Assembly (NCBI GenBank): GCA_964542785.1
Contig: CAZIUK010000003.1
Coordinates: forward strand, 12,946-76,945
Reading direction: 5' to 3'
DNA from: an uncultured Planctomycetales bacterium
GTDB lineage: Bacteria; Omnitrophota; Gorgyraeia; Gygaellales; Profunditerraquicolaceae
DNA length: 64,000 nt
Within the stretch, counting starts at the first letter, position 1. The number at the start of each line of letters is the position of its first letter. The notes under the pieces are model-generated. The model worked only from the letters and a program-made list of their open reading frames with translations, was not told where the DNA came from and did not search any database. Positions 29,359-63,227 of the stretch are shown here, in pieces. Made by a program: the position numbers and the translations under genes.

Positions 29359-29586
29359 ATGGCCGAATCCTTAATTTCTCCCGCTGAAATAACTAAAATT
29401 CATAGCATATCTTATCAGACGGTTAACTACTATACTAACCTTGGGCTCTTAAAAGTCAAAAAGAGAGAGGCTAATAATCGTCTTTACAGCTCCAAGGAAG
29501 TCAGTTCTAGCTTAAAGAAGGTCTCTGAGCTTAAGAGCCGGGGGTATTCATTAAAGCTTATATGTGATTTATTAAGAAAGGGCTGA
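29359..29586 (+). CDS. Small MerR/excisionase-type HTH DNA-binding protein
   Basis: 75 aa. The HTH-like segment is ISPAEITKIHSISYQTVNYYTNLGLL, and the GAGGAG RBS lies upstream. Confidence 0.55.
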   Translation: MAESLISPAEITKIHSISYQTVNYYTNLGLLKVKKREANNRLYSSKEVSSSLKKVSELKSRGYSLKLICDLLRKG

Positions 29587-29590
29587 TGGG

Positions 29591-30415
29591 ATGAGCTATT
29601 ATTCCGCGCTGGGGTTAAAAAAGGAACCTTTTTCTAATAGCCCTGACCCCGATTTTTTCTTTGAATCCAATGAACATAAAGCTGCCCTTACCAGGCTTTT
29701 GATTGAAATACGTCTGCGTAGAGGCTTAAGCGTTATTTTAGGTGATGTAGGAGTCGGCAAGACTACTCTTTCCCGTAAACTTTTTCAAATGCTAAAAGAG
29801 CGTTTGGATATACTCTTCTTTATGGTCTTGGATCCAACCGCTGAAAGCGCAGAGTTATTCTTAGAGTCGTTAGTGCGTACCTTTAACCTGCAGGATGATA
29901 TCGGTGATTCTCCGACAATACTTGATTATAAAGAGGTTATTAAAAAATTTCTCTTTCAGAAGGGGGTGGAGGAGAATAAAACTATAGTTTTAGTTGTTGA
30001 TGAAGCTCAAAAGCTTAACCCCTTGTCTTTAGAGATCTTACGCGTCTTATTAAATTATGAAACTAATGATTTTAAGCTTTTGCAGTTAGTCTTATTGGGG
30101 CAGTTGGAGCTCTTGTCTAGAATAAAAGAGATTAAGAATTTTTATGACCGTATAGTCCTTAAATATGTAATAAACCCTTTAGATGAATTAGCGACAAGGG
30201 ATTTAATTGATTTTCGTTTGAAGCATTCTGGTTTTGATTCTGAACTAAAACTTTTTACAGAGGAAGCAGTTAGCGAGGTTTACCGTTATAGCCAAGGTTA
30301 TCCGCGCAGGATTAATTTAATTTGCCATAATTCATTAAGAAATTTTTTGATGAGCAAAAAAACTTTAATTGATGCAGATATAATTAGAGAAGCAATAACT
30401 AAAAGCGCCTTATAG
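29591..30415 (+). CDS. GspA/ExeA/MshM-like AAA ATPase (AAA_22 type)
   Basis: 274 aa. Walker A is GDVGVGKTT and Walker B is VLVVDEAQ. No peptidoglycan-binding domain is visible. Confidence 0.7.
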   Translation: MSYYSALGLKKEPFSNSPDPDFFFESNEHKAALTRLLIEIRLRRGLSVILGDVGVGKTTLSRKLFQMLKERLDILFFMVLDPTAESAELFLESLVRTFNLQDDIGDSPTILDYKEVIKKFLFQKGVEENKTIVLVVDEAQKLNPLSLEILRVLLNYETNDFKLLQLVLLGQLELLSRIKEIKNFYDRIVLKYVINPLDELATRDLIDFRLKHSGFDSELKLFTEEAVSEVYRYSQGYPRRINLICHNSLRNFLMSKKTLIDADIIREAITKSAL

Positions 30416-30417
30416 TT

Positions 30418-31077
30418 ATGGATAAACAGAGCTCTGACGAAAGACTCCTTAAGCTTATAGAAGGTCAATATAATACCACTACCTTAAAAGGACAGCAAAT
30501 CCCATTTCCCAAAGGACAGAAGCCCGCTATAGAGAAAATAGAGAGAAAATTTAACCTCAATAAATTATTATCTCAAATTAAGGAGCTAAAAATTGATTTA
30601 GTTTATATTAACAAAGGATTAATTTTAGCAGCTGTTTTTTTAGTTTTAGTTTTTTTATTTACTATCTTTACTCCTCCTGGGACTTCTCTTTTAAGCCTTG
30701 AGACTTTTAATAACGCTAGCTCTCGGCAGATAGAGCAGCTAATTAATATGGGGCAAAAGCAGGCGAGTTTGCGTAAATCTGCCTCCTTTAAGGATATAAA
30801 AAGGAATATATTTCTTCCTTTTAGCGCTCCTCAGGGTTTATTAAACCTACAGCAAGCTACAGAATTATCGGAAGAGATAAAAGCGTTAAAATTGGTGGGT
30901 ATTATTTGGTCGGCTGATCCTGAGGTTATGATTGAGAATGCAAAAGACACAAGGACTTATATACTTAAAAAAGGAGATACTTTTAATGAATCTTATAAGG
31001 TAAAAAATATAACACGCAATTCAGTAACCTTGCAGGTATCTACCCAAGATGGCCTAAAGGATTATGAGCTAAGATGA
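30418..31077 (+). CDS. Bitopic membrane protein with a GspB/GspC-HR/PilP-like C-terminal domain
   Basis: 219 aa with a central TM segment (LILAAVFLVLVFLFTIF). The C-terminus is LKLVGIIWSADPEVMIENAKDTRTYILKKGDTF..YKVKNITRNSVTLQ. Confidence 0.5.
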   Translation: MDKQSSDERLLKLIEGQYNTTTLKGQQIPFPKGQKPAIEKIERKFNLNKLLSQIKELKIDLVYINKGLILAAVFLVLVFLFTIFTPPGTSLLSLETFNNASSRQIEQLINMGQKQASLRKSASFKDIKRNIFLPFSAPQGLLNLQQATELSEEIKALKLVGIIWSADPEVMIENAKDTRTYILKKGDTFNESYKVKNITRNSVTLQVSTQDGLKDYELR

Positions 31078-32609
31078 GGATTTTATTTTATTTTTTCTTA
31101 TATTTATCTTTATTTTTATTTTATCCCGGGTTAATTTTATCAGGAGAGGAAGGTACGCAGGTAAGCGCAGTTAAGGAGGTTAAGTTAGACGGGGTAAATG
31201 ATGATAGTCAAGAGAGTATTGATAAGATTTCTTTGGATCTGAAAGGGGTTGATATCAATGAGCTTTTTAAGATAATTTCTGCAAAATCCGGAATCACCAT
31301 AGTTACCTCTCCTGAAGTAAGGGGCCGGGTTTCGGTTTTTATTGATAATTTAAGTTTTGATGATGCGTTAGACGTAATCGTGACCTTACAGGATCTTGCT
31401 TACGAGAAGAAGGGGAACGTAGTAAAGGTGATGACTATGGTAGAGTATGAGCGGGCCTATGGGAAAAAATTCGGGGAGAGGAAAGAGACCCGTACTATAC
31501 GGCTTACTTATGCTAAGCCTTCTAATGTCGTCAATGCAATTACCTCCTTAAAGTCTGACCTTGGCAAGATTATTGCCGATGAATCTACCGGGACTATTAT
31601 TATAACCGATACTCCGCAATCTTTAAGTGTCATTTTAGAAGCTATTAAAGAATTAGACCGTCCTTTAGAAACTTTAGTAATTGATATTAATTATGCGCGT
31701 TTTGGGGATATAAAAAATTACCTGAATGAATTAATTACCCCCGGGGTAGGGCAGATTATCTCTGATGATAGAAGCGGTAAAGTGGTGGTTTATGATTTTC
31801 CTCAAAGGTTGGCGCGCATTAAAAACCTTTTGCAGGAATTAGACGAACAGTCCCGTCAGGTGCTTATTACTGGAGAGATTATTGAAGTAGAGATAGGCGA
31901 TAAATTTCAAAGCGGTATTGAGTGGGAAAAAATATTTAAGTCTGTGCATATGGATAATTTGGATTTAGTAGCGAAATTTCCAGTTACCCCGGCTTTGGCT
32001 AATTACGGTAAAATTAGCATAGGAACCTTGACACAGGACCATTATAATATAATAATTAATATGATTAATGAATATGGAAAGACTAAGATACTTAACCGCC
32101 CTAGGATTGTGGCGGTTAATAAAGAAGAGGCTAGGATTCTTGTCGGGACTCGCGAGGCCTATGTTACCTCTAGCCAAAGCCAAAGCGAAACTTCTGTAGT
32201 TACCGCAGAGAACATCAACTTTGTAGATGTCGGGCTTAAGCTGGTGGTTATTCCTACTATTGGCTCTGACGGTTTTATTACTATGAAAATAAAGCCTGAA
32301 ATCAGCACAGTAAAGGAGTATTTAGATACTGAGGCAGGTGGCCGTGTGCCGATAGTTAAAACTGCTGAATCGGAGACTGTGGTTAAGGTAAAAGACGGAA
32401 ATATGTTAGTTATAGCAGGGTTGATGATAGATAGTGATTTAAAAGAGGCTAAGGGGCTGCCTGATTTGTCTAAGTTGCCTATTTTAGGCCATTTATTTTC
32501 TACGAAGACAAAGGAAAAGACAAAATCAGAAATAGTTATTTTTATAACGCCAACAATTATAAGCGGCACTAGTGATTTTGGGCGCGAGGAGAGAAATGCA
32601 ATCAGGTAA
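31074..32609 (+). CDS. Secretin (PilQ/MshL/GspD family), paralog 1
   Basis: 511 aa with a signal peptide and an N0/STN-like domain (ISLDLKGVDINELFKIISAKSGITIV...). The secretin core includes LNRPRIVAVNKEEARILVG, IPIVKTAESETVVKVKDGNMLVIAGL and VIFITPTII. Confidence 0.85.
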   Translation: MRILFYFFLYLSLFLFYPGLILSGEEGTQVSAVKEVKLDGVNDDSQESIDKISLDLKGVDINELFKIISAKSGITIVTSPEVRGRVSVFIDNLSFDDALDVIVTLQDLAYEKKGNVVKVMTMVEYERAYGKKFGERKETRTIRLTYAKPSNVVNAITSLKSDLGKIIADESTGTIIITDTPQSLSVILEAIKELDRPLETLVIDINYARFGDIKNYLNELITPGVGQIISDDRSGKVVVYDFPQRLARIKNLLQELDEQSRQVLITGEIIEVEIGDKFQSGIEWEKIFKSVHMDNLDLVAKFPVTPALANYGKISIGTLTQDHYNIIINMINEYGKTKILNRPRIVAVNKEEARILVGTREAYVTSSQSQSETSVVTAENINFVDVGLKLVVIPTIGSDGFITMKIKPEISTVKEYLDTEAGGRVPIVKTAESETVVKVKDGNMLVIAGLMIDSDLKEAKGLPDLSKLPILGHLFSTKTKEKTKSEIVIFITPTIISGTSDFGREERNAIR

Positions 32610-32628
32610 TATTATAAATGGTATAAAA

Positions 32629-32665
32629 GGGGACAGCGACTTTTTTATCAAAAAGTCGCTGTCCC
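32629..32665. repeat. REP-like inverted pair (hairpin) between the two secretin genes
   Basis: GGGGACAGCGACTTTTT-tatc-AAAAAGTCGCTGTCCC forms a perfect 16-bp stem. Confidence 0.95.
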
Positions 32666-32670
32666 TATTT

Positions 32671-34611
32671 ATGAAATGGGGTATCTGCCTATTTTTATTA
32701 TTTTTGCTGATAGCGCCTTTAGGGGCTTTTATTTTTGCGCAAGGCGATATTGATTATGATGAACAGATAGATAAGATTTCTTTAGATTTAAAGAATGTTG
32801 AAATTGTAGAGCTTCTGCGCATACTTTCTCTTAAGACAAAAAAGACAATTGTCCCCAGCAAAGATATCTCAGGGCGCGTTACTATTTACCTTAATAACGT
32901 CTCTTTTAATGACGTTTTAGATATAGTCCTTTTAACTCAAGGCCTGGCTTTAAACAAAAAAGATAATATTTATTATGTTATGAGCGAAGCTGAATTTAAA
33001 AAAATTTTCGGCCGGGATTACATTGACAATAGAAAGGTAGAGACGGTAAAGCTTGCTTATGCTAAGCCCTCGGTAGTTTTTAATGCCTTAGGCCAGTTAA
33101 AATCAGATCTGGGGAAATTAGTCGTAGATGAATCAAGCGGGACGGTTATTCTTATAGATATTCCCGAAAAACTTTCTCTGATGAAAAAGATGATAAATGA
33201 AATGGACCAGCCATTGACAACCAAGGTCTACAACCTTAACTACATTAAAGCTGCTGATGCTAAAACTCAAATAACTGCCGCTATTACGCAAGGCACAGGA
33301 GAGGTTATAGTAGATGAAAGAAGCAGTAAAGCTATTGTTTCAGATTTATCTAAGAAAATGGATAAGATAGGTATGCTTGTACGCGAGATAGACGAAGAAT
33401 CGCGCCAGGTTTATGTGGAGGCTGATATTGTAGAGCTTAGTTTAAGCGATAAGTTTGAGCGCGGCATAGATTGGGAGAAGGTTTATACCTCTGCGGCTAT
33501 GGATGGATTAACCTTTGCCGGTTATTTCCCTGCTACATTAGCGCAGTTTCAAAAAATATCCGTTGGCACTTTAGCCGTGGATCACTACAAGGCCATATTA
33601 AATTTTCTTAACACTTACGGCAAGACGAATATCATCTCTCAGCCTAGGATAGCAGTTGTTAATAATGAAGAGGCAAATATTATGATTGGCGTGCGTGAGG
33701 CTTATATAACACAGACGCAGAGTCAGGCTACTTCCACTACGGTTACTTCGGAAACGGTAGAGTTTATTGATGTTGGCGTTAAGCTTAAAATATCCCCAAG
33801 GATAGGCTCTGATGGTTTTATCACTATGAAACTTAAACCTGAGGTAAGCTCTGTAAAGGAGACAGTAGAGACTTCTTTAGGCAGCCGTATTCCGATAGTC
33901 CAGACTTCTGAGTCAGAGACGACGGTAAAGGTTAAGGATGGGACGATGATTATGATTGCCGGGATGACTAAGATTGAAAATGTAGATGCGATTAAGGGTT
34001 GGCCAGTGCTTTCTAAAATTCCCTTTCTTGATATATTCTTTGGCAATCGTACCAGCGAGAAAAAGAGAACAGAGGTTATAGTCTTTTTGACTCCGAGAAT
34101 AATGCGCAGTGATGAAGGCTTAAGAGGATTAGAGATTGCTAAGATTCTCCCTAAGGAATATCTGCCTGAGAAGCTGCAGGTTAAGATAGACAGGGACCAG
34201 AAGATAGATGACGCTTTGTTTGAGACTGAGGAGAATCCGCAGGAATTACTTACGGCGCGCGATTATTATTTTAAGGGGTTAGAGTCGCAGGCATCTTTGG
34301 ATAATAAAGAGGCCATACGTTATTTTAAGAAGGCTATAGAGTTAGATAGTAAATATGCCGCGGCTTATAACAATTTAGGAATTGCTTATGAGAAGGAGTT
34401 TATGCCGGAAAAAGCAGAAGAGGCGTATCTTCAGGTTATATCTATGGACCCTTCTTTTGTCTCTGCTTATTCTAATTTAGCCTTACTTAATGAAGACCGG
34501 CTTGATTATGCCCGGGCGCTTATTTATTGGAGAAAACGAGTCCTTTACGGAGACCCTAATGATGAGTGGACTAAACAGGCTGTTCAAAGGGTTAAGGAGC
34601 TTAGCCGTTAA
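32671..34611 (+). CDS. Secretin paralog 2 with a C-terminal TPR extension
   Basis: Domain order matches paralog 1, with roughly 45-50% identity by eye. It adds a TPR-like tail (AIRYFKKAIELDSKYAAAYNNLGIAYEK...). ATG 32671 directly precedes the signal peptide MKWGICLFLLFLLIAPLGAFIFAQG. The upstream in-frame ATGs at 32572 and 32596 read through the REP hairpin. Confidence 0.8.
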   Translation: MKWGICLFLLFLLIAPLGAFIFAQGDIDYDEQIDKISLDLKNVEIVELLRILSLKTKKTIVPSKDISGRVTIYLNNVSFNDVLDIVLLTQGLALNKKDNIYYVMSEAEFKKIFGRDYIDNRKVETVKLAYAKPSVVFNALGQLKSDLGKLVVDESSGTVILIDIPEKLSLMKKMINEMDQPLTTKVYNLNYIKAADAKTQITAAITQGTGEVIVDERSSKAIVSDLSKKMDKIGMLVREIDEESRQVYVEADIVELSLSDKFERGIDWEKVYTSAAMDGLTFAGYFPATLAQFQKISVGTLAVDHYKAILNFLNTYGKTNIISQPRIAVVNNEEANIMIGVREAYITQTQSQATSTTVTSETVEFIDVGVKLKISPRIGSDGFITMKLKPEVSSVKETVETSLGSRIPIVQTSESETTVKVKDGTMIMIAGMTKIENVDAIKGWPVLSKIPFLDIFFGNRTSEKKRTEVIVFLTPRIMRSDEGLRGLEIAKILPKEYLPEKLQVKIDRDQKIDDALFETEENPQELLTARDYYFKGLESQASLDNKEAIRYFKKAIELDSKYAAAYNNLGIAYEKEFMPEKAEEAYLQVISMDPSFVSAYSNLALLNEDRLDYARALIYWRKRVLYGDPNDEWTKQAVQRVKELSR

Positions 34612-35965
34612 CTTAAAACCAAAGAAGAGCTTTTTTCAGGAGAAACTCCTCCTCTTTTCTTTTTTCATCCTTATTTTTAGCACCTTTCTTATAGGATCTG
34701 TTGGTATATCCAAAATATATTGGTTTAATGCTAAAGTTAAAGATTTAGCCCAACATAACCTTAAATTAGAGTCCGCAGTTCTTGAGATGAGGATAAGGAA
34801 TGCTAATTTTGCGATGGGGGTGCGTAACTATGTTTTTTGGCGCGCTTCACGCTACTTGCAGTCTGTATCCATTGCCGGAGACTTAGATAAGATTTTTATT
34901 TCGGTAGAAGATTTTGAAGAGCATCTTAAAGCGTATCGCCAGAGTTCTTATCTAAAGGAGCAGAGGGATTGGGCAGATGAAGTAGCTTTAGCTTTTGATG
35001 GGGTTGTCCAGCAAGGCAAGAGGCTTGTTGAGCTGCTTGGAAAAGAAGAACCGGGAAAGATAAGCGAGCTTATAAACAGCCAGTTGATGAGCTTTGAGAA
35101 TAATGTTTACCGAATTGATGAATTTTTAGATAAGGCGATGGGCAAGTCTAATCTTGCTGAGGTAGAGCGCCAGATGCTTATTACAGCTCAGGATAAGGAG
35201 CAGGCTATTAGTTTTTTGAAGGTAAGCCTTATTGTATCTATTCTTATGGGGTTAGTTATTGCGTCTGTGGTATATCGCAGGATAGTCCGGGAAAAAGCTT
35301 ACCGCCAGAAACTCTTTGACCGGATTGTAAATCTTGAGGAGGACGAGCGTAAGAAGCTCTCTACCGCGGTTCATGATGAGATGGGCCAAGACTTAAGCGC
35401 CCTTAAGATTTATTTAGGGTTAATTTCTCAAGAGCTGCCGGATATAGCTGAAGATACTAAGAAAAAGCTTGATGAGTGCAAAAAGATCGCTTCCGGGCTT
35501 ATCGAGAAGAGCCATAATATTTCTTTTCTTCTCAGGCCCCCGGAGTTAGACGAGGTAGGGCTTTTAGAGAGCATAGAATCGCTTCTTCTTGAGGCTAAAC
35601 ATTTAACGGGGATAGAGTATTCATTTCAGAAGCCTAAGCTTTTGCTGGATTGTTCGGCAGAGAGGAGTCTTTTGCTTTACCGCGCCTCTCAGGAACTTTT
35701 AACCAATATGATAAAATATGCAAAGGCAAAAAATGTGGTTTTACGTTTAAATAGGATCGGTGATTCCGCTCAGCTTTTTTATTATGATGATGGTTGCGGG
35801 TTTGATCTTGCAAAGTTAAAGTATAAATTATTGCGCCGCAGAGAGGATAAGTTTGGCTTGGGGTTATTGGGCCTGAAAGAAAGGGTGGAGCTTTTAGGCG
35901 GGGATATAAAGATAAATTCGTCTTTGGGGGGAGGCACGACTATTATAGTCAATTTGCCGCTTTAA
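34559..35965 (+). CDS. Sensor histidine kinase (HisKA_3/NarX-DegS type)
   Basis: It has two TM segments flanking a sensor domain of about 190 aa. The H-box is AVHDEMGQDLSAL and an HATPase_c domain follows (ELLTNMIKYA, DDGCGF, GLGLLGLKERVELLGG). ATG 34559 has GGAG 6 nt upstream and overlaps the 3' end of the secretin gene. Confidence 0.8.
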   Translation: MMSGLNRLFKGLRSLAVNLKPKKSFFQEKLLLFSFFILIFSTFLIGSVGISKIYWFNAKVKDLAQHNLKLESAVLEMRIRNANFAMGVRNYVFWRASRYLQSVSIAGDLDKIFISVEDFEEHLKAYRQSSYLKEQRDWADEVALAFDGVVQQGKRLVELLGKEEPGKISELINSQLMSFENNVYRIDEFLDKAMGKSNLAEVERQMLITAQDKEQAISFLKVSLIVSILMGLVIASVVYRRIVREKAYRQKLFDRIVNLEEDERKKLSTAVHDEMGQDLSALKIYLGLISQELPDIAEDTKKKLDECKKIASGLIEKSHNISFLLRPPELDEVGLLESIESLLLEAKHLTGIEYSFQKPKLLLDCSAERSLLLYRASQELLTNMIKYAKAKNVVLRLNRIGDSAQLFYYDDGCGFDLAKLKYKLLRRREDKFGLGLLGLKERVELLGGDIKINSSLGGGTTIIVNLPL

Positions 35966-35967
35966 TC

Positions 35968-36609
35968 ATGCCTATAAGAGTCGCTATAGTCGATGACCAC
36001 GATATAATCCGTTTGGGGATAAAGAGTGTCTTAGAGAAAATCACAGATTATGAAATTTGCGCTGAAGGAGAGAATGGCGAAGAAGCCTTAAAGATCGCGC
36101 AAAGCTTATCTCCGGATATTATGTTGTTAGATATAACTATGCCTAAGCTTGGAGGGCTTGATATTATTTCCAGGATAAAACGTGCCAGTCCTAAAACCCG
36201 CATTGTGATTATTTCGGTGCATAAATTAGGGGCGTATGTTTTAAAGGCCTTAAGGCAAGGAGTAAGCGGGTATCTTAATAAGGAGAATGTTGCAGAAGAA
36301 CTACTTCTAGCACTTTCAAGCGTATCTAAGGGTAAGGTTTATTTTGGTCAAGAGATATCTCAGTATCTTGCAGAGACTGTTAAAAACCCGGACCAAAAAC
36401 CCTTGTCTCACAGCCTTCTGAGTGAAAAGGAATTGGATATTCTGCGTTTGGTAGTTGAAGGGAAGACAGCAAAAGAGATAGCAGAGGTTACTTTTCTAAG
36501 CCATCGGACAGTTGAAAATTATAAGAATAGTATTATGAAAAAGCTTAATTTACACAAGACAAGTGATTTGATTAAGTACTCATTAGAGAACAAAATACTT
36601 GATATTTGA
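35968..36609 (+). CDS. NarL/FixJ-family response regulator (REC + LuxR-type HTH)
   Basis: 213 aa with VDDHD, MLLDITMP and the C-terminal HTH TAKEIAEVTFLSHRTVENYKNSIMKKL. Confidence 0.9.
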   Translation: MPIRVAIVDDHDIIRLGIKSVLEKITDYEICAEGENGEEALKIAQSLSPDIMLLDITMPKLGGLDIISRIKRASPKTRIVIISVHKLGAYVLKALRQGVSGYLNKENVAEELLLALSSVSKGKVYFGQEISQYLAETVKNPDQKPLSHSLLSEKELDILRLVVEGKTAKEIAEVTFLSHRTVENYKNSIMKKLNLHKTSDLIKYSLENKILDI

Positions 36610-36670: not shown

Positions 36671-36791
36671 ATTTATAAGAGTAATATTTATAATAAAATA
36701 GAGTAGTTTTACGATTGTTATTTTAGGATAAATATAATATACTTAAGGTACAGGTTAAAAATAAAAAATGGCAGGTATAATGAAAATAATA

Positions 36792-36815
36792 AACAATAAC
36801 AATAACAATAACAAC
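36792..36815 (+). repeat. Hexanucleotide microsatellite (AACAAT)x3 + AACAAC
   Basis: Read directly from the sequence. It lies in the 5' leader of the DUF2341-like gene and produces the poly-Asn in the spurious ORF extension. Confidence 0.9.
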
Positions 36816-36818
36816 AAA

Positions 36819-36872
36819 GGGGACAGCGACTATTACTATTTTTGCGCTATGATAAAAAAAGTCGCTGTCCCC
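36819..36872. repeat. REP-like inverted pair with a 30-nt spacer, overlapping the start codon of the next gene
   Basis: GGGGACAGCGAC (36819-36830) pairs with GTCGCTGTCCCC (36861-36872). The ATG at 36849 lies inside the spacer. Confidence 0.9.
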
Positions 36873-39338
36873 ATTTTGGTTGCGTGTTTTTTTGTTGTCG
36901 CAGCGCAGGCAGAGGTCTTGGTAATTAAAGCTCCCTTAACTTGGGGGCTTGATAAATCCGCAGAATACCCTTTGCCAAAAGTATTAAACGGTATTTATAC
37001 AACTGACCAGTTTGTAGCTACTGAAGGACAAGTTAGCGCTATTACGATGAATTGGGAATCAAGGGGCGCTATATCAATGGAGGTAAGCGCTGATAATGGG
37101 CTGCATTATACTCCGGTAATAAATGGCGTTCCTTTAGAGAGCGGTTTTGTAAGTGGAGATAGGATTCGCTGGCGGGCACAAGCGCTAAATGAGGATGCGC
37201 AGTTAACAGCGGTGAATCTTTCTTATTCTGATACATCCGGAGTAATAGGGGATTTTGGCCAGCCACTTTTAAGCGGATTTATGTACCGTAAAGAATTTAT
37301 AGTGCGCAATGATTCTAGAGAAGATTTATACAATTATCAGATGAAGCTAAGAATAGGGGAAAGTGAATTAGCCAAGGATGCTGATATCTGCCTTTCTAAA
37401 AAAGCAAAAGAGGATTTTAGCGATATAAGAATTAGCGCATCTGATGGTAAGCGTATTTTATCCTATTATCTTGAAAGCATAGAAGGCGAGCTTCCAGGAA
37501 AGCGCAGTGCTGTAATTTGGGTTAATATTCCTCAACTGCCAAAAGAAAAAGATTTAAAGCTTTACCTATATTATGGGAATCCGCAGGCTTTAAGTTTATC
37601 AAGCGGCGAGCAGACGTTTGATTTTTTTGATGATTTTAAAGACCCTGCCAAGAGCAATGAGAAATGGATAACCTATACAGAAAAAAACGGTACCTTGCAA
37701 TTAAAAAATGGGGAAATTAAGCTTGATGCAGCCGAAGCCATTACAAAAGATTTTCTTTTTAAAGAAGGAATTGTTGAGTATCCCGTAGAGATTGAGAGCG
37801 GTTTTGAAAACAGTTTAAACTTGCGTGTCCAGAATGGTAACTCTTATGATATTCCGCTTTGGTCGGGTTATTCTTCTTTATACAAAGGTGCAGAGCATTG
37901 CATTGCTGTAGAGGGGACAGTAAGAAATAATGACACAACTGCTCTACCTTCTTTTGCCGGAAATAGGTATTACTACCGTTTTGAATATTTTAATGGTAAT
38001 ATAGTCTTTAGCCGTTTTGATGCTTTGACTAAAGAAAAGCAGGCAGAGGCAGTCTTTAAGTCTGATTCTTTGCAAAAAATAGGCTATCTGTCTTTGCGTT
38101 CCGGAGGTGACGGGAATGGCAAGAATGTTATTCGTTTTGGCGCTATACTTGTGCGTAAAGCTGCTTTAATCAAACCGTATTTTGTTTCAGCAGGAAAAGA
38201 AGAGCAACTCTCTTTGCCTATTTTTTCCGGTACAACTCTTTCTTCTTTTGGGAGCCTTACTTTGGCCAAAGGGGCAATGAGCGGGCATTATATTTCAAGT
38301 AATATCCGAAGCGAAGACCAGATAAGGATCATGATCCCTGACTGGGATATTGATTCTCTTGGAGGAGAGTTTATCTTACATCTTTCTGCTGATGCCGGCG
38401 GGTCATATAAGAAAGGCTGCGAAAAGGGGAAGTATTATTATGCTTCAAAAAAGGATTTTGTCCCCGGGAAAAACTTAAAGATACGCATTGACCTTTTAAA
38501 AGGGGCAGGCTCCGAAGTCGAAAAAGTCGCTGTCCCCTTTGTGAAGGTGGAGCATAGGGCAGGAAAGGTAAATATTATTTCACCTAATGGCAGAGAGGTC
38601 TGGGAGGTAGGAAGCAGTAAGAAGATTAGCTGGAGTGCCTTGGATTACGATGAAACTTATCTTTTTGATTTAGCTTACTCTGTCAATGGAGGAAAGGATT
38701 ATATTGAGATTATAGCCAATAAAGATAATGATGGAGTTTATACTTGGGTTGTCCCGGATAAAATTACTAAAATCGCAAAGATAAAGATATCTGATTCTTT
38801 GGATAAAGGTATTTATGATCTTTCCGATGCTTATTTTTCTATTGTAGCTAGAGAAGATTTAAGCATTCAGGAAGAGAAAAAAGAAGAAGCAGGGGTAGTA
38901 GTGCAGGCAGCGCTAAAAGATAAAGCCAGTAAAGAGAGCAAAGATAAGAAAGATAAAGTTACTAAAGAAAGCAAAAAGAAGAAAGATAAAGTTAGCAAAG
39001 AGAACAAAAAGTTGCCGGGGAAAAATCTTTATGATCTTTTAATTAAGATAGGCGATAGCAGGTCTTCCTACAGCGAGGGGGATATTGTTATCTTAAGGCC
39101 TTCAGGTTATATTTGGAGCGTTGAAGAGAGGGAGAAGTTTTTGATTGCGCAGGTATACCTAACTGAAAAGCAGGCTGAGGAATTAACCTCTCCTTTAAAA
39201 ACAAAGGATGGAGAGATATTAAGCCGCAGGAAATATAGGATTAACTTGCTTAAGCAGGGGCTTAAAGGTTTGACAGGGTCAATTAAAAGGCCAAAGGGCT
39301 CTTTTGAGGCAGGGGTTATTGAGGATAAGGCAAATTAG
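36849..39338 (+). CDS. Large secreted protein with a DUF2341-like domain, beta-sandwich modules and a Lys-rich segment
   Basis: The start is set at MIKKVAVPILVACFFVVAAQAEV (signal peptide). The DUF2341-like pattern is YRKEFIVRN...DFSDIRISASDGKRILSYYLES...AVIWVNIPQLP...LYLYYGNPQA. An IISPNGREVWEVGSSKKISW module is present. The K-rich repeat is KDKVTKESKKKKDKVSKENKK. Confidence 0.6.
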   Translation: MIKKVAVPILVACFFVVAAQAEVLVIKAPLTWGLDKSAEYPLPKVLNGIYTTDQFVATEGQVSAITMNWESRGAISMEVSADNGLHYTPVINGVPLESGFVSGDRIRWRAQALNEDAQLTAVNLSYSDTSGVIGDFGQPLLSGFMYRKEFIVRNDSREDLYNYQMKLRIGESELAKDADICLSKKAKEDFSDIRISASDGKRILSYYLESIEGELPGKRSAVIWVNIPQLPKEKDLKLYLYYGNPQALSLSSGEQTFDFFDDFKDPAKSNEKWITYTEKNGTLQLKNGEIKLDAAEAITKDFLFKEGIVEYPVEIESGFENSLNLRVQNGNSYDIPLWSGYSSLYKGAEHCIAVEGTVRNNDTTALPSFAGNRYYYRFEYFNGNIVFSRFDALTKEKQAEAVFKSDSLQKIGYLSLRSGGDGNGKNVIRFGAILVRKAALIKPYFVSAGKEEQLSLPIFSGTTLSSFGSLTLAKGAMSGHYISSNIRSEDQIRIMIPDWDIDSLGGEFILHLSADAGGSYKKGCEKGKYYYASKKDFVPGKNLKIRIDLLKGAGSEVEKVAVPFVKVEHRAGKVNIISPNGREVWEVGSSKKISWSALDYDETYLFDLAYSVNGGKDYIEIIANKDNDGVYTWVVPDKITKIAKIKISDSLDKGIYDLSDAYFSIVAREDLSIQEEKKEEAGVVVQAALKDKASKESKDKKDKVTKESKKKKDKVSKENKKLPGKNLYDLLIKIGDSRSSYSEGDIVILRPSGYIWSVEEREKFLIAQVYLTEKQAEELTSPLKTKDGEILSRRKYRINLLKQGLKGLTGSIKRPKGSFEAGVIEDKAN
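38521..38537 (-). repeat. REP-like half-site inside the coding sequence
   Basis: AAAAAGTCGCTGTCCCC is translated in frame as EKVAVPF. Confidence 0.85.
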
Positions 39339-53390: not shown

Positions 53391-53449
53391 GGGGACAGCG
53401 ACTTTTTTGATAAAAAGTCGCTGTCCCCCTAGAAAAAGTCGCTGTCCCC
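53391..53449. repeat. REP-like cluster (one forward and two reverse copies) after the giant gene
   Basis: GGGGACAGCGACTTTTT-tgat-AAAAAGTCGCTGTCCCC forms a 17-bp stem. A second AAAAAGTCGCTGTCCCC follows at 53433-53449. Confidence 0.95.
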
Positions 53450-55735: not shown

Positions 55736-56614
55736 ATGCATAAAGATGTAGATATTTTAGTTATCAAAGGAGAAGAAAAAGCCACAGGGTTGATTGAATC
55801 TACGGTTCGTTCTGCAGGCTACAATGTTTGGTTGGCCAATGATCATAATGAAGGCTTGAAGCTTTTGCGTTCTAATACTTTCCCGATAGTAATTACAGAA
55901 GTACTTTCTGTAAAGATGGATGTTGCTCACTTTTGTAGAGAGGTCAACAAACTAAGCCCGTTGACTAACGTGATTGTTGTTGCCCTCTATTCTTTAATTA
56001 ATAACGCTATTAAGGCTATGGAGGCAGGGGCTTACGGGTATATTACTAAGCCACTAAATGTTTCTGAAATACGTATAGTCGTGGAGAGGGCAGTAGAGAG
56101 GTACTTTCTGTTTTCTGCCAGGGAAGATAAGGATTATTTTGTTGATTTAGCTGTAAGGGATGGGCTTACCGGACTTTTTAATCGGCGCTATTTTAATGAA
56201 TTAATAAAAATAGAGTTTAGCCGCATTAAGCGGTTACCGTCGTTTCTCTCTCTGCTAATTCTTGACATAGATAATTTTAAAAACTATAATGATACGCAAG
56301 GACATAGCGCAGGCGACATTTTATTAAAGAATGCCGCTAAAATTTTTAAGAGTTCTGTGCGTACCGTAGATATAGTTTTTCGCTATGGGGGAGAGGAGTT
56401 TGCAGTAATACTTCCTAGTACAGATAAAAAAGGGGCTCAGATTATTGCAGAGAGGATACGTATGCAGGTGAGCCTGTATCTACCTACTACTGTAAGTATA
56501 GGCATTTCTACTGCCCCAGAAGATGCCGAGGAGATAAGCCTATTGATAGAGAAGGCGGATAAGGCTTTGTATCAAGCGAAGAACAGTGGTAAAAATAAGT
56601 GGTGTGTTGCATGA
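55736..56614 (+). CDS. Diguanylate cyclase with a degenerate receiver domain (REC-GGDEF)
   Basis: 292 aa. The active site GGEEF has an RxxD I-site (RTVD) 5 residues upstream. In the REC domain the phospho-acceptor position reads IVITEV (Glu instead of Asp), and the acidic pair is replaced (ILVIKGEE). Confidence 0.8.
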   Translation: MHKDVDILVIKGEEKATGLIESTVRSAGYNVWLANDHNEGLKLLRSNTFPIVITEVLSVKMDVAHFCREVNKLSPLTNVIVVALYSLINNAIKAMEAGAYGYITKPLNVSEIRIVVERAVERYFLFSAREDKDYFVDLAVRDGLTGLFNRRYFNELIKIEFSRIKRLPSFLSLLILDIDNFKNYNDTQGHSAGDILLKNAAKIFKSSVRTVDIVFRYGGEEFAVILPSTDKKGAQIIAERIRMQVSLYLPTTVSIGISTAPEDAEEISLLIEKADKALYQAKNSGKNKWCVA

Positions 56615-57774: not shown

Positions 57775-57778
57775 GCTT

Positions 57779-59251: not shown

Positions 59252-59264
59252 ATGGGATAAATGA

Positions 59265-59337
59265 AATGGGGGACGAAATGGGGGACAGCGACTTTTTTCT
59301 AAAAAAAGTCGCTGTCCTCCCATAAAGTCGCTGTCCC
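59265..59337. repeat. REP-like cluster between atpA and atpG
   Basis: A partial head AATGGGGGAC is followed by GGGGACAGCGACTTTTTT (59281-59298). Reverse copies are AAAAAAAGTCGCTGTCC (59301-59317) and AAAGTCGCTGTCCC (59324-59337). Confidence 0.9.
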
Positions 59338-59349
59338 TCCCATTAAAAG

Positions 59350-60192: not shown

Positions 60193-61599
<1,407 letters not shown>

Positions 61600-61601
61600 A
61601 T

Positions 61602-63227
61602 ATGTCTAATAAATTATTAGGAGAGATGTTGTTGAGGAAGAAGTTTATCAGCGAGGAACAACTTTCTCAGGCATTAATGGCTTGTTCTCAGAATGAATCT
61701 ATGTTGGGGGCATACTTAGTGGAGAAAGGTCTTATCAGGGAAGAGGAGCTTTTAAGTGTCTTGTCCGAACAGTTTAATATTCCTTTTCTTTCTAATTTAA
61801 GAGAGGTTAAGGTTTCTACTGAAGCGATAAAAGCTATCCCGGCAAAATTAGTACAACACCACGGGTTTATCCCCATAAGTTTAGATGGCCAAGTTTTAAC
61901 GGTTGTGGTTTTTAATCCCATGGATTTATGGCTTGCGGAAAATATTAAACTTAATTTAGGCTTTCAAATTAAGAGGGTACTCTCTACGCGAAATGAAGTA
62001 GAGAAGGCAATACACAAGTATTATGGTGCTGTTGCCGGTACTGTGGATAAAATCATGGAAGGAAGATTTAGGCCCGGGATAAAGATTGAAAAAAGAGAGA
62101 CCATAGAGGATATTGAAAAAAACTCCGATGAGGCCTCAGTGATAAAGCTGGTGAATCAGATTATTTCAGAGGCAATAAAAATAAACGCGACTGATATTCA
62201 CATTGAGATTTATGAGAAGAAGATAGAGTTGCGTTACCGCATTGATGGAGTTTTACGTGAAATGAAGTTGCCCCAGGATGCTTATTATATCGGCCCGGCA
62301 ATTGTATCCAGGGTTAAAATTATGTGCCGTTTGGATGTTGTAGAACACCGCTTGCCTCAGGATGGCAGGGCAAGGGTGCGTTTAATTAGCGGGCAAGAGG
62401 TAGATTTAAGGGTTTCGGTTTTACCCAGTTATTTTGGAGAGAATGTTGTTATTCGCATACTTCCTTCGGGAGTTTTGCTTTGTTTGGATAAGATAGGTTT
62501 TTTCCCCGAAGATCTAAAGAAGATAAAAATGCTTTTGCAAAAACCGCACGGGATAATCCTTATTACAGGGCCTACCGGAAGCGGCAAGACTACCACGCTC
62601 TATGCTTCTTTAAGCCAATTAAACCGTAAAGAGGTAAAGATAATCAGTATAGAAGATCCGGTTGAATATGCAGTAGAGGGAATTACCCAAATCCATATTA
62701 ATCCTAAAATCGGGCTTACTTTTGCCAGCGCATTACGCAGTGTATTAAGGCATGATCCGGATGTTATGATGATAGGGGAGATCCGAGATCCTGAGACTGC
62801 GGATTTAGCGATACGTTCTGCATTAACCGGCCATTTGGTATTCTCTACGCTTCATACCAATGATTCAGCATCTGGGGTTGCCCGTCTTATAGATATGGGG
62901 ATCGAGCCGTATCTTTTAGCTTCCTCAATTGAGGTAATTATAGCGCAGAGGTTAGTGCGCTTGCTCTGTACTGCTTGTTCAGGAAAAGGTTGCGAGGCTT
63001 GCAGTGAAACAGGGTTTAAGGGGAGAAGGCCGGTTTATGAGATTATGATTATAGATGATGAAATTCGTAATATGATTATATCTCGTAAAAGTTCGCAAGA
63101 AATAAAGGCTAAGGCGCGGCAGAACGGGATGCTTACCCTTATGGATAACGGCATGCTTTTAGTTGAACAAGGTTTAACTAGTAAGGAAGAGATTTTACGC
63201 GTTGTGGAGTTAGAGCAGGAAGGTTAA
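61602..63227 (+). CDS. GspE/PilB/MshE-family secretion ATPase with an MshEN-type N-terminal domain
   Basis: 541 aa. Walker A is GPTGSGKTTT. An Asp box, a His box and a tetracysteine cluster (CTACSGKGCEAC) are present. The N-terminus has two 24-aa MshEN-like motifs separated by 5 residues. Confidence 0.88.
   Translation: MSNKLLGEMLLRKKFISEEQLSQALMACSQNESMLGAYLVEKGLIREEELLSVLSEQFNIPFLSNLREVKVSTEAIKAIPAKLVQHHGFIPISLDGQVLTVVVFNPMDLWLAENIKLNLGFQIKRVLSTRNEVEKAIHKYYGAVAGTVDKIMEGRFRPGIKIEKRETIEDIEKNSDEASVIKLVNQIISEAIKINATDIHIEIYEKKIELRYRIDGVLREMKLPQDAYYIGPAIVSRVKIMCRLDVVEHRLPQDGRARVRLISGQEVDLRVSVLPSYFGENVVIRILPSGVLLCLDKIGFFPEDLKKIKMLLQKPHGIILITGPTGSGKTTTLYASLSQLNRKEVKIISIEDPVEYAVEGITQIHINPKIGLTFASALRSVLRHDPDVMMIGEIRDPETADLAIRSALTGHLVFSTLHTNDSASGVARLIDMGIEPYLLASSIEVIIAQRLVRLLCTACSGKGCEACSETGFKGRRPVYEIMIIDDEIRNMIISRKSSQEIKAKARQNGMLTLMDNGMLLVEQGLTSKEEILRVVELEQEG

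What the first reader, a model, noticed from the sequence alone, without database searches (positions are those of the whole stretch)
31074..34611. Two adjacent, diverged secretin paralogs, the second fused to TPR repeats and separated from the first by a REP hairpin
**Seen in sequence:**
- Both proteins share the same order: signal peptide, N0/STN-like domain, N-domains and secretin core. By eye they are about half identical.
- Paralog 2 carries an extra C-terminal extension of about 150 aa that ends in TPR-like repeats.
- A 16-bp perfect REP hairpin (32629-32665) sits exactly where a ribosome-binding site for paralog 2 would be. The only SD-like sequence (GAGGAG, 32587-32592) lies upstream of the hairpin.

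**Established knowledge:** MshN and PilF/PilW-type TPR proteins act as separate secretin pilotins or accessory factors.

**Inference:**
- The TPR fusion could be a built-in pilotin.
- The pair could form a heteromeric or alternative channel.
- The hairpin could set the expression ratio between the two.
Basis: partly seen in the sequence, partly recalled or inferred. Interest (0 to 1): 0.65.

Follow-up and report, generated by a model that had tools for sequence, protein, structure and literature searches.

The report
Paired secretins with in-frame palindrome insertion
Two neighbouring outer-membrane channel genes, the second ending in a protein-binding (TPR) domain, form a conserved gene pair in Omnitrophota bacteria, and the hairpin thought to separate them is a mobile palindrome inserted in frame inside the second gene's export signal.

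Summary
The sequence observations hold. There are two adjacent secretins (31074-32609 and 32596-34611) that are 48% identical. The second has a real C-terminal 3-repeat TPR domain. A perfect 16-bp hairpin (32630-32665) belongs to a dispersed repeat family.

The gene model given for the hairpin is wrong. In 34 non-redundant related Omnitrophota loci the pair is conserved. In the TPR-bearing relatives, secretin 2 starts at a conserved ATG 11 nt before secretin 1's stop, preceded by GAGG. In the window this is ATG 32596. The genes therefore overlap by 14 nt, GAGGAG is the real ribosome-binding site, and the hairpin lies inside codons 12-24 of secretin 2's signal peptide.

Close relatives lack the insert. 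Others carry unrelated palindromes at the same site. All 14 distinct inserts keep the frame open. The hairpin is therefore a tolerated, translated mobile element, not a conserved ratio-setter.

Both paralogs are under strong purifying selection (dN/dS 0.06-0.11) and form mirrored ortholog clades. The TPR was gained within a subclade and has no lipid anchor, so it is an accessory domain rather than a classical pilotin.

The operon also encodes an MshM/GspA-like ATPase and a GspC/PilP-type HR-domain protein. Whether the channel is heteromeric remains untested.

The parts
29359..29586 (+). Small MerR-type gene (75 aa), first gene of the conserved cassette.
   Evidence: ORF. The identical or orthologous 75-76 aa gene carries Pfam MerR_1 in L001, L012 and L014.
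29591..30415 (+). AAA_22 ATPase (274 aa) with MshM/GspA(ExeA)-like architecture and no peptidoglycan-binding domain.
   Evidence: Pfam AAA_22 at 1.1e-17. The best NCBIfam hit, TIGR03015, is below cutoff. The gene is conserved in every related locus that extends far enough upstream.
30418..31077 (+). Bitopic membrane protein (219 aa) with a C-terminal HR domain of the GspC/PilP/GspB type. This domain class binds the secretin N0 domain.
31074..32609 (+). Secretin paralog 1 (511 aa): signal peptide, N0, two ring domains and secretin core, with a short C-terminal tail.
   Evidence: Orthologs are 63-91% identical in related loci. dN/dS is 0.06-0.11.
32586..32591 (+). Shine-Dalgarno sequence (GAGGAG) for secretin 2, embedded in the last codons of secretin 1.
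   Evidence: GAGG is conserved at -10 to -7 of the start codon in nearly all of the TPR-bearing relatives with the canonical overlap.
32596..34611 (+). Secretin paralog 2 (671 aa from the conserved ATG). It contains an extended signal peptide, N0 (aa 60-138), N1 (147-203), N3 (207-268), secretin core (271-503), a helical linker (512-545) and TPR (554-670).
   Evidence: The start is fixed by ortholog comparison and matches the database gene call P0001. Domains come from Pfam and the AF2 model. The nearest folds are PulD/GspD, InvG and PilQ.
32630..32665 (.). REP-like 16-bp perfect hairpin, inserted in frame in codons 12-24 of secretin 2 (GDSDFFIKKSLS). This is the n-region of the signal peptide.
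   Evidence: Presence/absence and frame conservation are shown.
34111..34254 (+). Linker between the secretin core and the TPR. Its length varies among orthologs and it is partly helical.
   Evidence: AF2 secondary structure. Ortholog lengths are variable. It shows the highest dN/dS outside the signal peptide against L003 only (0.24); against L011 it is 0.06, lower than the TPR.
34255..34605 (+). TPR domain: three repeats plus a capping helix, with a strongly conserved C-terminal motif (YWRKRVLYGDPNDxWT).
   Evidence: Pfam TPR_1 at 1.4e-11 and other TPR models. pLDDT is above 90. The consensus-TPR structure 1na0 matches with TM 0.82. The conserved motif is seen. dN/dS is 0.08-0.20.
34559..35965 (+). 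HisKA_3-type histidine kinase. The listed ORF starts at 34490. The likely start is ATG 34559, which overlaps the secretin 2 3' end.
   Evidence: Pfam. Conserved directly downstream of secretin 2 in nearly all related loci that extend far enough. The start codon is inferred by reading the sequence.
35968..36609 (+). NarL/LuxR-type response regulator, the last conserved gene of the cassette.
   Evidence: Pfam Response_reg plus GerE. Conserved in related loci.
36820..36872 (.). Second REP copy that overlaps a secreted-protein start. Its 3' arm encodes the beginning of the DUF2341 protein's signal peptide (MIKKVAVP...).
53392..53448 (.). Intergenic three-arm copy of the same REP family, downstream of the 3115-aa gene.
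59282..59337 (.). Intergenic three-arm REP copy between two ATPase genes.
61602..63227 (+). MshEN + T2SSE assembly ATPase of a type IV filament machine, the likely inner-membrane partner system. It directly follows F-type ATPase genes.
   Evidence: Pfam T2SSE at 1.2e-129 and MshEN at 3e-14. The same synteny, with T2SSF and PilM/N, is seen in L015.

Best explanation
**What the region is**
- The region is the core of a conserved Omnitrophota operon.
- The gene order is a MerR-like gene, an MshM/GspA-like AAA ATPase, a GspC/PilP-type HR-domain membrane protein, secretin 1, secretin 2 with TPR, a histidine kinase and a response regulator.
- The two secretins come from an old duplication and both are maintained by selection.
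- Their genes overlap by 14 nt. Secretin 2's ATG at 32596 and its GAGG ribosome-binding site lie inside the end of secretin 1, so the two are co-transcribed and probably translationally coupled.

**How it most likely works (inferred)**
- Both secretins work in the same envelope machine. They form either a mixed ring or two coordinated rings.
- That machine is the outer-membrane gate of a type IV filament or T2SS-like system. Its ATPase is encoded 27 kb downstream.
- The HR-domain protein would dock on their N0 domains, and the AAA ATPase would assist assembly, as in GspAB/ExeAB.
- The TPR domain is tethered by a variable linker to the C-terminus, where S-domains and pilotins act in other secretins. 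It is a fused accessory domain that binds a partner. It would stabilise or scaffold the ring as TadD, MshN or PilF do in trans. It is not a Lol-dependent lipoprotein pilotin.

**The hairpin**
- It is a mobile REP-like palindrome that landed just after secretin 1's stop. This places it inside the n-region of secretin 2's signal peptide.
- It is tolerated because it stays in frame and that segment is cleaved off.
- It is translated as GDSDFFIKKSLS.
For: **Shown**
- The cassette order is conserved in all 9 genome loci and in deep lineages. A total of 34 non-redundant loci carry both secretins side by side.
- The sec1 and sec2 clades are clean and have mirrored topology.
- dN/dS is 0.06-0.11 for both paralogs, 0.03 for the secretin core and 0.08-0.20 for the TPR. 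Invariant residues are retained equally in both clades.
- The start codon lies at sec1 stop minus 11, with GAGG upstream, in the TPR-bearing relatives.
- 14 of 14 distinct insert-bearing junctions are open in the sec2 frame from that start. The other two frames are open in 0 of 14, with 3-12 stops each.
- The insert is absent in L004, L006, L007, L010 and L017. L003 versus L017 shows a clean indel.
- At least three unrelated palindrome families use the same site.
- Half of all strong hairpins found in 34 cassettes lie at this junction.
- The signal-plus-insert segment evolves nearly neutrally, with dN/dS of 0.43-0.89.
- The TPR fold is confident.
- A T2SSE/MshEN ATPase is in the window, and T2SSF and PilM/N are nearby in L015.

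**Literature context**
- A conserved T2SS-like locus lies upstream of Omnitrophota giant genes (10.1101/2023.11.21.568195).
- TadD is a TPR protein that binds the secretin C-terminal tail (PMC10499894).
- MshN is related to TadD (10.1101/576694).
Against: - No experiment or multimer model links the two secretins physically. Operon-wide gene overlaps (p219/sec1, sec2/HK) mean that coupling is not specific to the pair.
- No natural heteromeric secretin is known to me.
- The TPR is generic in sequence. Its best matches are designed consensus TPRs and OGT, not pilotins. Deep lineages do without it, so it is not essential to the pair.
- Translation of the insert is inferred from frame conservation and has not been observed. 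A downstream ATG (32671) exists right after the hairpin.
- The hairpin (local fold -39 kcal/mol) followed by a U-rich stretch could still attenuate secretin 2 expression in this particular genome.
Confidence: 0.6

Rival explanations
1. Obligate heteromeric channel. Secretin 1 and secretin 2 co-assemble in one ring. The TPR of secretin 2 grips the C-terminal tail of neighbouring secretin 1 subunits, or another partner. This gives a built-in half-stoichiometric accessory ring.
For: - The two genes are always adjacent and their trees are mirrored.
- The start and stop codons overlap.
- The cassette has a single HR-domain partner and a single AAA ATPase.
- TadD binds the last four residues of RcpA in its TPR groove (PMC10499894).
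- A 14:7 PilQ:TsaP complex exists (PDB 6ve2, listed).
- The secretin 1 tail motif EE(K/R)Nxx(K/R) is conserved in TPR-bearing lineages.
Against: - There is no direct evidence.
- Conservation of the secretin 1 tail is confounded by its overlap with secretin 2's SD and first codons.
- TPR-less lineages keep the pair.
- The paralogs are only 48% identical, with 7 fixed differences.
- I know of no natural precedent.
Confidence: 0.3
2. Two separate homomeric channels with different jobs, kept adjacent only for co-regulation. One could serve the type IVa pilus and the other could export large surface or giant proteins. The TPR would recruit system-specific partners to channel 2.
For: - Paralogous secretins in one genome usually serve different systems. 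An example is the three paralogs with distinct functions in M. xanthus (PMC12475490).
- Omnitrophota encode T4aP, Tad and T2SS-like genes (PMC10066038; 10.1101/2023.11.21.568195).
- Divergence is uniform at 40-52% across all domains, including N0.
- The TPR is present on only one paralog.
Against: - Strict adjacency and overlap persist across the phylum with only one HR-domain partner gene.
- No second set of machine genes lies beside either secretin.
- The mirrored phylogenies fit either model.
Confidence: 0.35
3. The hairpin is a selected regulatory device, either an attenuator or an mRNA stabiliser. It would lower secretin 2 relative to secretin 1. Different lineages would have recruited different palindromes to the same site for this purpose.
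For: - The junction holds 15 of 30 strong hairpins found in 34 cassettes, although it makes up about 2-3% of their length.
- Unrelated palindromes converge on this one site.
- The stem is very stable.
- A U-rich tail follows the stem in the window.
Against: - More than half of the orthologs, including close relatives, have no insert.
- The U-tract is not conserved in L003 or L011.
- The same repeat families also sit at other junctions and inside the kinase gene, and in the DUF2341 signal peptide. This fits opportunistic insertion into permissive, AT-rich gene-boundary sites.
- Coupled ribosomes reading through would melt the stem.
Confidence: 0.15
4. Paralog 2 is a decaying or mis-started duplicate whose translation is blocked by the hairpin.
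For: There is no SD before ATG 32671, and the stem ends 6 nt before it.
Against: - dN/dS is 0.08-0.09 over the whole gene and 0.03 in the secretin core.
- The Pfam Secretin match is full length at 146 bits.
- More than 100 ortholog clusters exist.
- The conserved upstream start has an SD.
Confidence: 0.02

Closest known systems
GspD / PilQ / MshL secretins (Pfam PF00263 superfamily)
   Same: - Full-length Secretin domain, Secretin_N ring domains and an N0/STN domain.
- The fold matches PulD, GspD, InvG and PilQ.
- The best PDB sequence hits are M. xanthus PilQ and P. aeruginosa XcpQ.
   Different: - Scores are below the curated cutoffs of all named subfamilies: PilQ 227 vs 284, GspD 223 vs 351 and MshL 173 vs 250.
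- There are no AMIN domains.
- The genes occur as a conserved tandem pair.
- One member carries a C-terminal TPR in place of an S-domain.
TPR secretin accessory proteins / pilotins: PilF, PilW, Tgl, TadD, MshN
   Same: - A TPR fold associated with a secretin.
- It sits at the secretin C-terminus, where TadD engages RcpA (PMC10499894).
- The operon also has an MshM-like ATPase, echoing the mshL-mshM-mshN trio.
   Different: - It is covalently fused rather than a separate protein.
- There is no lipobox or lipid anchor.
- It has only three repeats plus a cap, whereas TadD has five.
- Its sequence resembles consensus TPRs, not these families. Tgl scores 29 vs cutoff 225 and PilW 25 vs 154.
- It is absent from deep-branching orthologs.
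GspA-GspB (ExeA-ExeB) secretin assembly pair, and GspC / PilP HR-domain proteins
   Same: - An AAA_22 ATPase gene is followed by a bitopic membrane protein.
- Both genes lie immediately upstream of the secretins.
   Different: - The ATPase lacks the peptidoglycan-binding domain of ExeA/GspA and is MshM-like in length.
- p219 has no significant single-sequence match to T2SSB, T2SSC or PilP.
- p219 has a conserved cytoplasmic motif, MDKQTSDERLLKLIEG.
Rickettsia palindromic elements (RPEs): selfish palindromic repeats inserted in frame in protein-coding genes (Ogata et al. 2000, recalled from memory, not checked here)
   Same: - A dispersed palindromic repeat is inserted inside an ORF.
- The reading frame is preserved.
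- The insertion sits in a structurally permissive segment.
- Insertions are present or absent among relatives.
   Different: - The sequence family and phylum are unrelated.
- The element is much shorter, with 16-23 nt arms.
- The permissive site here is a cleaved signal-peptide n-region.
- The same site is hit by several different families.
REP / BIME elements of enterobacteria
   Same: - A short GC-rich imperfect palindrome occurs in many copies.
- Copies are mostly between genes of the same operon or after stop codons.
- Single, double and triple-arm arrangements occur.
   Different: - This copy, and the one at 36820-36872, overlap coding sequence.
- No RAYT transposase was seen in the window.
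- There is no sequence similarity and no Rfam match.
Conserved T2SS-like locus upstream of Omnitrophota giant genes (West-Roberts et al. 2023, bioRxiv 10.1101/2023.11.21.568195)
   Same: - The phylum is the same.
- gspD-type genes lie upstream of very large genes. Here these are 856-, 961- and 3115-aa ORFs at 36.8-53.4 kb.
- gspE/F-type genes are nearby.
   Different: In the text I could search, that report names gspD only generically. It does not describe tandem paralogs, the TPR fusion, the AAA/HR-domain partners or the palindrome insertions.

Membership tests
Secretin superfamily (PF00263) | C-terminal secretin domain above the Pfam gathering score | tested here: met
   Both paralogs score 146 bits against a cutoff of 27.5, covering profile positions 2-169 of 169.
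Secretin superfamily (PF00263) | N-terminal N0/STN domain plus Secretin_N ring domains, and a signal peptide | tested here: met
   Each has two Secretin_N stretches above cutoff. STN and GspD_N0 hits fall just below cutoff. The AF2 model shows N0, N1 and N3 folds. XcpQ N0-N1 structures match.
Type II secretion GspD (TIGR02517 equivalog) | Score above the curated cutoff | tested here: not met
   223 and 202 bits against a cutoff of 351.
Type IV pilus PilQ (TIGR02515) | Score above the curated cutoff; AMIN domains are typical of T4aP PilQ | tested here: not met
   227 and 208 bits against a cutoff of 284. No AMIN domain was found by Pfam.
MSHA secretin MshL (TIGR02519) | Score above the curated cutoff | tested here: not met
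   173 and 164 bits against a cutoff of 250.
Pilotin (PilF/PilW/Tgl/TadD class) | TPR fold | tested here: met
   Several Pfam TPR models are above cutoff. The model shows three TPR pairs plus a cap with pLDDT above 90.
Pilotin (PilF/PilW/Tgl/TadD class) | Outer-membrane lipoprotein with a lipobox cysteine, trafficked by Lol | tested here: not met
   The domain is the C-terminus of the secretin itself. The secretin 2 signal peptide ends ...GAFIFA/QGD with no lipobox.
Pilotin (PilF/PilW/Tgl/TadD class) | Specific sequence membership in a pilotin family | tested here: not met
   Tgl scores 29 vs 225 and PilW 25.5 vs 154. The best PDB hits are designed consensus TPRs and OGT.
Pilotin (PilF/PilW/Tgl/TadD class) | Required for secretin targeting or multimerisation | not testable with these tools
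   This needs genetics or biochemistry.
REP (repetitive extragenic palindrome) | Short palindrome present in many dispersed copies | tested here: met
   There are 14 arm copies in 64 kb against 0.07 expected. The same core is present in L003, L011 and L026.
REP (repetitive extragenic palindrome) | Extragenic location | tested here: not met
   This copy lies in codons 12-24 of secretin 2. The copy at 36820-36872 overlaps the DUF2341 signal peptide. The other copies are intergenic.
REP (repetitive extragenic palindrome) | Associated RAYT (Y1) transposase | not tested
   None was noticed among the ORFs scanned. Not all ORFs in the window, and none outside it, were searched.
In-frame palindromic insertions (RPE-like) | Repeat inserted within an ORF with the frame preserved, polymorphic among relatives | tested here: met
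   14 of 14 inserts are open in frame and 0 of 14 in the other frames. L003 versus L017 shows a clean indel.
In-frame palindromic insertions (RPE-like) | The insert is actually translated | not testable with these tools
   This is inferred from frame conservation only.
GspA/GspB (ExeAB)-type secretin assembly module | AAA_22 ATPase plus a partner with a periplasmic HR-fold domain, encoded next to the secretin | tested here: met
GspA/GspB (ExeAB)-type secretin assembly module | Peptidoglycan-binding domain on the ATPase | tested here: not met
   The 274-aa protein has only AAA-type hits.

The most novel reading that the evidence does not exclude
Omnitrophota build their main outer-membrane gate from two obligatorily paired secretin paralogs that form a natural heteromeric secretin ring. 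In one large subclade, one subunit carries a fused TPR domain. This domain would replace a separate lipoprotein pilotin or accessory ring by clasping a neighbouring subunit's tail or a periplasmic partner.
Probability: 0.25. Interest if true: 0.75.

Novelty: new variant of a known kind. Interest (0 to 1): 0.5.

Why it matters
- Secretins are normally described as homo-oligomers that depend on separate pilotins. A phylum-wide, selection-maintained tandem pair with one subunit fused to a TPR domain is a natural case for asking two questions. Can secretin rings be heteromeric? Can accessory functions be built in without a lipid anchor?
- The operon lies upstream of the very large genes that have been linked to the proposed predatory or parasitic lifestyle of Omnitrophota. 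This channel is therefore a candidate exit route for that machinery.
- The junction shows that the n-region of a signal peptide can act as a safe harbour for mobile palindromes. These are translated and then cleaved away.
- There is a practical consequence for annotation. Gene callers and human readers mis-place start codons at such sites. For example, P0002 and P0021 are called from downstream ATGs although the upstream frame is open.

Tried and rejected
- **Subfamily assignment.** Assigning the secretins to PilQ, GspD or MshL with NCBIfam failed. All scores were below cutoff.
- **Pilotin similarity.** A search for pilotin-specific similarity in the TPR found only generic TPR matches.
- **Terminator.** The promoter/terminator scan flagged the hairpin as terminator-like only on the minus strand. 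The U-tract is not conserved in L003 or L011, so I rejected a conserved terminator.
- **Rfam.** The whole window gave no family match.
- **Literature.** Searches for Omnitrophota plus secretin, for fused TPR secretins and for heteromeric secretins found no description of this arrangement.
- **p219 structure.** I redid it with database homologs.
- **Downstream genes.** The look-up of the window's T2SSE gene returned only a 5.3-kb contig. I could not see the pilus or T2SS genes beyond the window end, or check for a third secretin.
- **Alternative start.** ATG 32671 as the secretin 2 start was considered and rejected on comparative grounds.
- **Decaying duplicate.** Rejected from dN/dS and conservation.
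- **Searches not run.**
  - I ran no further search on secretin 1, because the 34 loci already show the pairing.
  - I did not run the exhaustive representative search, because the consensus-like TPR would return non-specific hits.

Full report
**1. What is in the sequence**

ORF listing and translation show a tight run of + strand genes:
- a 75-aa gene (29359-29586)
- a 274-aa protein (29591-30415)
- a 219-aa protein (30418-31077)
- a 511-aa protein (31074-32609)
- a long ORF open from 32572 to 34611
- a histidine kinase
- a LuxR-type response regulator

The 511-aa protein and the long ORF are both secretins by Pfam. Each has Secretin at 146 bits (cutoff 27.5), two Secretin_N stretches, and weak STN/N0 hits. 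The second also matches several TPR models above cutoff near its C-terminus. BLASTP between the two gives 48% identity over 453 residues.

The hairpin is exactly as described: 16 perfect base pairs (32630-32645 / 32650-32665) with a 4-nt loop. The local RNA fold is far more stable than shuffles (-39.2 kcal/mol, z=-5.2). Its 12-nt core occurs 14 times in the window against 0.07 expected. Most copies lie between genes, as one-, two- or three-arm units. The factual observations are therefore sound.

**2. Where the window comes from, and conservation of the pair**

The second secretin is identical to a database protein from a 101-kb contig. It has more than 100 cluster representatives, and nearly all named ones are annotated as Candidatus Omnitrophota.

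Nine loci from species-representative genomes all show the same gene order: AAA ATPase, p219, secretin 1, secretin 2, kinase, regulator. Identities to the window are:

| Comparison | Identity |
|---|---|
| Secretin 1 orthologs | 63-91% |
| Secretin 2 orthologs | 57-92% |
| Between the two paralogs, in every genome | 46-51% |

Three deeper lineages, reached through TPR-less homologs, have the same cassette with a MerR-type gene in front and DUF2341 and giant genes behind. Adding a metagenome scan gives 34 non-redundant loci that carry both secretins side by side.

A neighbour-joining tree separates a secretin 1 clade from a secretin 2 clade, and the two have the same internal branching order. 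The duplication therefore predates these lineages, and both copies were inherited together.

**3. Neither copy is decaying**

dN/dS against two relatives:

| Region | vs L011 | vs L003 |
|---|---|---|
| Secretin 1 | 0.11 | 0.06 |
| Secretin 2 | 0.09 | 0.08 |
| Secretin 2 core | 0.03 | 0.03 |
| TPR | 0.20 | 0.08 |

The two clades keep similar numbers of invariant residues in every domain. In the secretin domain, 53 positions are invariant across both. Divergence between the paralogs is even across N0, N1, N3 and the core, at 40-52% identity.

**4. The start of secretin 2 and the true position of the hairpin**

In the TPR-bearing relatives the secretin 2 reading frame begins with ATG (GTG once) exactly 11 nt upstream of secretin 1's stop, giving a 14-nt overlap. 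GAGG sits at -10 to -7 of that start. The deep TPR-less lineages (L012, L014) overlap differently (4 nt or 20 nt).

Orthologs without any insert read MK(x)NNK followed directly by the hydrophobic core of a signal peptide, for example MKRNNKICLPALSLIILAV. In the window the homologous codon is ATG 32596 and the GAGGAG is at 32586-32591. The database gene call (671 aa) uses the same start.

The hairpin therefore lies inside the ORF, in codons 12-24. It encodes GDSDFFIKKSLS, between the conserved first residues and the hydrophobic core (WGICLFLLFLLIAPLGAFIFA/QGD). That puzzle disappears with the correct start.

**5. The hairpin is a mobile insertion, translated and tolerated**

- *Presence and absence.* Close relatives differ. 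L011 has a three-arm version, L003 has a variant with compensatory stem changes, and L017 has none. L017 is as close to the window as L003. The L003/L017 alignment shows a clean indel.
- *Other families at the same site.* Other lineages carry unrelated palindromes there:
  - The GTCATTGCGAG...CTCGCAATGAC family is translated as VIASERSERSN...LAMT.
  - A 27-bp-stem element occurs in L051.
  - Further families are visible only as peptides.
- *Frame conservation.*
  - Fourteen distinct insert-bearing junctions measure 174-294 nt from the start codon to the conserved DKISLDL motif, against mostly 114-132 nt without an insert.
  - All 14 are multiples of three and open in the secretin 2 frame.
  - The other two frames are closed in every case, with 3-12 stops each.
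  - This pattern is expected only if ribosomes start at the conserved ATG and read through the insert.
- *Relaxed constraint.* The signal-plus-insert segment evolves almost neutrally (dN/dS 0.43-0.89), as expected for a cleaved leader.
- *Hot spot.*
  - This junction makes up about 2-3% of cassette length but holds 15 of the 30 strong hairpins found in the 34 cassettes.
  - The same repeat families also occur at other gene boundaries and even inside the kinase gene.
  - In the window, a second copy of the same repeat overlaps the start of the DUF2341 protein's signal peptide (MIKKVAVP...). In L011 that arm is duplicated in frame.

My reading is that palindromic elements in these genomes land preferentially at AT-rich gene boundaries. 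Because secretin 2 begins before secretin 1 ends, 'just after the stop of gene 1' falls inside the leader of gene 2. Only in-frame, stop-free insertions survive there.

A conserved role in setting the expression ratio is not supported. An incidental effect in this particular genome cannot be excluded. The stem is very stable and is followed by UAUUUAU.

**6. The TPR extension**

The AlphaFold model, built on 66 homologs, has a mean pLDDT of 75.8. Its domains are:

| Domain | Residues |
|---|---|
| N0 | 60-138 |
| Ring domain 1 (N1) | 147-203 |
| Ring domain 2 (N3) | 207-268 |
| Secretin core | 271-503 |
| Partly helical linker | 512-545 |
| Three TPR pairs plus capping helix (pLDDT above 90) | 554-670 |

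- *Fold neighbours.* Foldseek places the body next to PulD/GspD, InvG and PilQ. It places the tail next to an idealised TPR (1na0, TM 0.82).
- *Sequence similarity.* The TPR resembles designed consensus TPRs and OGT, not PilF, PilW, Tgl or TadD.
- *No lipid anchor.* The secretin 2 leader has no lipobox. The domain cannot be a Lol-trafficked lipoprotein pilotin in the strict sense.
- *Why a function is still likely.* The TPR is under purifying selection. It ends in a strongly conserved motif (YWRKRVLYGDPNDxWT). It hangs from the C-terminus, where S-domains and pilotins act in other secretins.
- *Precedents.* TadD is a TPR protein that rings RcpA by binding its last four residues (PMC10499894). 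MshN is reported as a TadD relative (10.1101/576694).
- *Distribution.* The TPR was acquired within a subclade. The deep lineages L012, L014 and L015 have acidic or low-complexity tails instead.
- *Conclusion.* I infer a fused accessory or scaffold domain that binds a partner.

**7. The rest of the module**

- The 274-aa protein is an AAA_22 ATPase of MshM/GspA type without a peptidoglycan-binding domain.
- The 219-aa protein had no family hit on its own. Its family is restricted to Omnitrophota.
- The operon therefore looks like a GspAB/ExeAB- or MshM-type assembly pair, followed by two secretins and a two-component system.
- A MshEN/T2SSE ATPase lies at 61602-63227, directly after F-type ATPase genes. 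In L015 the same neighbourhood continues with T2SSF and PilM/N.
- This matches two published descriptions. One is the non-respiratory F-ATPase next to type IVa pilus genes (PMC10066038). The other is a T2SS-like locus upstream of giant genes (10.1101/2023.11.21.568195). In the text I searched, neither paper describes tandem secretins, the TPR fusion or the insertions.

**8. How it most likely works, and what remains open**

*Shown*
- The operon is conserved and the two genes overlap.
- Both genes are under selection.
- The neighbouring protein has an HR fold.
- The TPR fold is confident.
- The insertion is in frame.

*Inferred*
- The two secretins act in one machine.
- The TPR binds a partner.
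- The AAA/HR pair assists assembly.

I could not distinguish a mixed ring from two coordinated homomeric rings. Adjacency, coupling, mirrored trees and a single HR partner lean toward co-assembly. The lack of any known natural heteromeric secretin, and the usual one-paralog-one-system pattern (for example, three functionally distinct paralogs in M. xanthus, PMC12475490), lean the other way. Conservation of the secretin 1 tail cannot be used as evidence, because that tail overlaps secretin 2's ribosome-binding site and first codons.

**9. Verdict**

The finding is real but partly mis-modelled. It is a new variant of known kinds:
- an uncharacterised secretin subfamily, below all curated subfamily cutoffs
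- a phylum-conserved tandem pair
- a TPR fusion in one large subclade
- an RPE-like in-frame palindrome in the leader peptide

Interest is moderate. It would be high if the pair proved to be a heteromeric channel.

Noticed in passing
window 36768-36900 (DUF2341 gene start); L003 7395-7500; L011 14097-14300: A second copy of the same repeat overlaps the 5' end of the DUF2341 gene. The likely start is ATG 36849, and the repeat's 3' arm encodes the first residues of the signal peptide (MIKKVAVPILV...). In L011 the arm is duplicated in frame (KKVAVPFLKKVAVPFL). Repeat-free orthologs start MNKYTVGIILG. An AAT/AAC run encoding poly-Asn lies just upstream.
   Followed up: partly
L005 about 5601-5606 and L019 (same sequence); L037 about 4089-4271: In two independent assemblies, an in-frame TAG stop lies in the linker between the secretin core and an otherwise intact TPR domain. 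In L037 the same linker has a frameshift. These could be recent loss of the TPR, read-through, or assembly errors in a K/E-rich low-complexity stretch.
   Followed up: partly
L015 8403-10012 and L016: Secretin 1 is called as a 478-aa protein that lacks the last beta-strands. The missing C-terminal segment continues in another frame up to a stop at 10012, where the usual 11-nt relation to the secretin 2 ATG is restored. The same is seen in an NCBI and a Logan assembly.
   Followed up: no
L020 7943-8023; L032 8063-8143 and 7143-7218; L037 810-885; L051 2446-2517 and 8164-8244: Palindromic elements of the GTCATTGCGAGG family and the L051 family also sit inside the histidine kinase coding region and at other gene boundaries of the same cassette. 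In-frame or boundary insertion therefore appears to be a general habit of these genomes.
   Followed up: partly
window 38525-38536: A single arm of the repeat (GTCGCTGTCCC) lies deep inside the DUF2341 ORF, where it is translated EKVAVPF. It could be a remnant of an old insertion or a chance match.
   Followed up: no
window 19404-23003: The ribonucleotide reductase large subunit is interrupted by an intein with a LAGLIDADG homing endonuclease domain.
   Followed up: no
window 57061-63227: F-type ATPase genes (b/delta fusion, alpha, gamma, beta) are followed without a gap by a MshEN/T2SSE ATPase. This is the 'symbiotic' F-ATPase plus type IVa pilus arrangement described for Omnitrophota. A GGDEF response regulator lies at 55736-56614 just upstream, and MshEN domains are known c-di-GMP binders (the latter from memory).
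   Followed up: partly
window 34490-34611: The histidine kinase ORF overlaps the 3' end of secretin 2. The likely start is ATG 34559, 7 nt after GGAG. The secretin 2/kinase junction would then be an overlapping, possibly coupled, junction too.
   Followed up: no
window 44023-53370: A 3115-aa ORF has no Pfam match at all. It lies downstream of the DUF2341, FGE-sulfatase-like (535-aa) and 961-aa Ig-like proteins. It is probably one of the large surface proteins typical of this phylum.
   Followed up: no
P0019, P0092, L005, L008 record titles: Some orthologs are labelled Methanoperedens, Parcubacteria or Planctomycetales in public records. However, they carry the same Omnitrophota-type cassette and are 60-70% identical to the window protein. 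These are probably binning or labelling errors.
   Followed up: no
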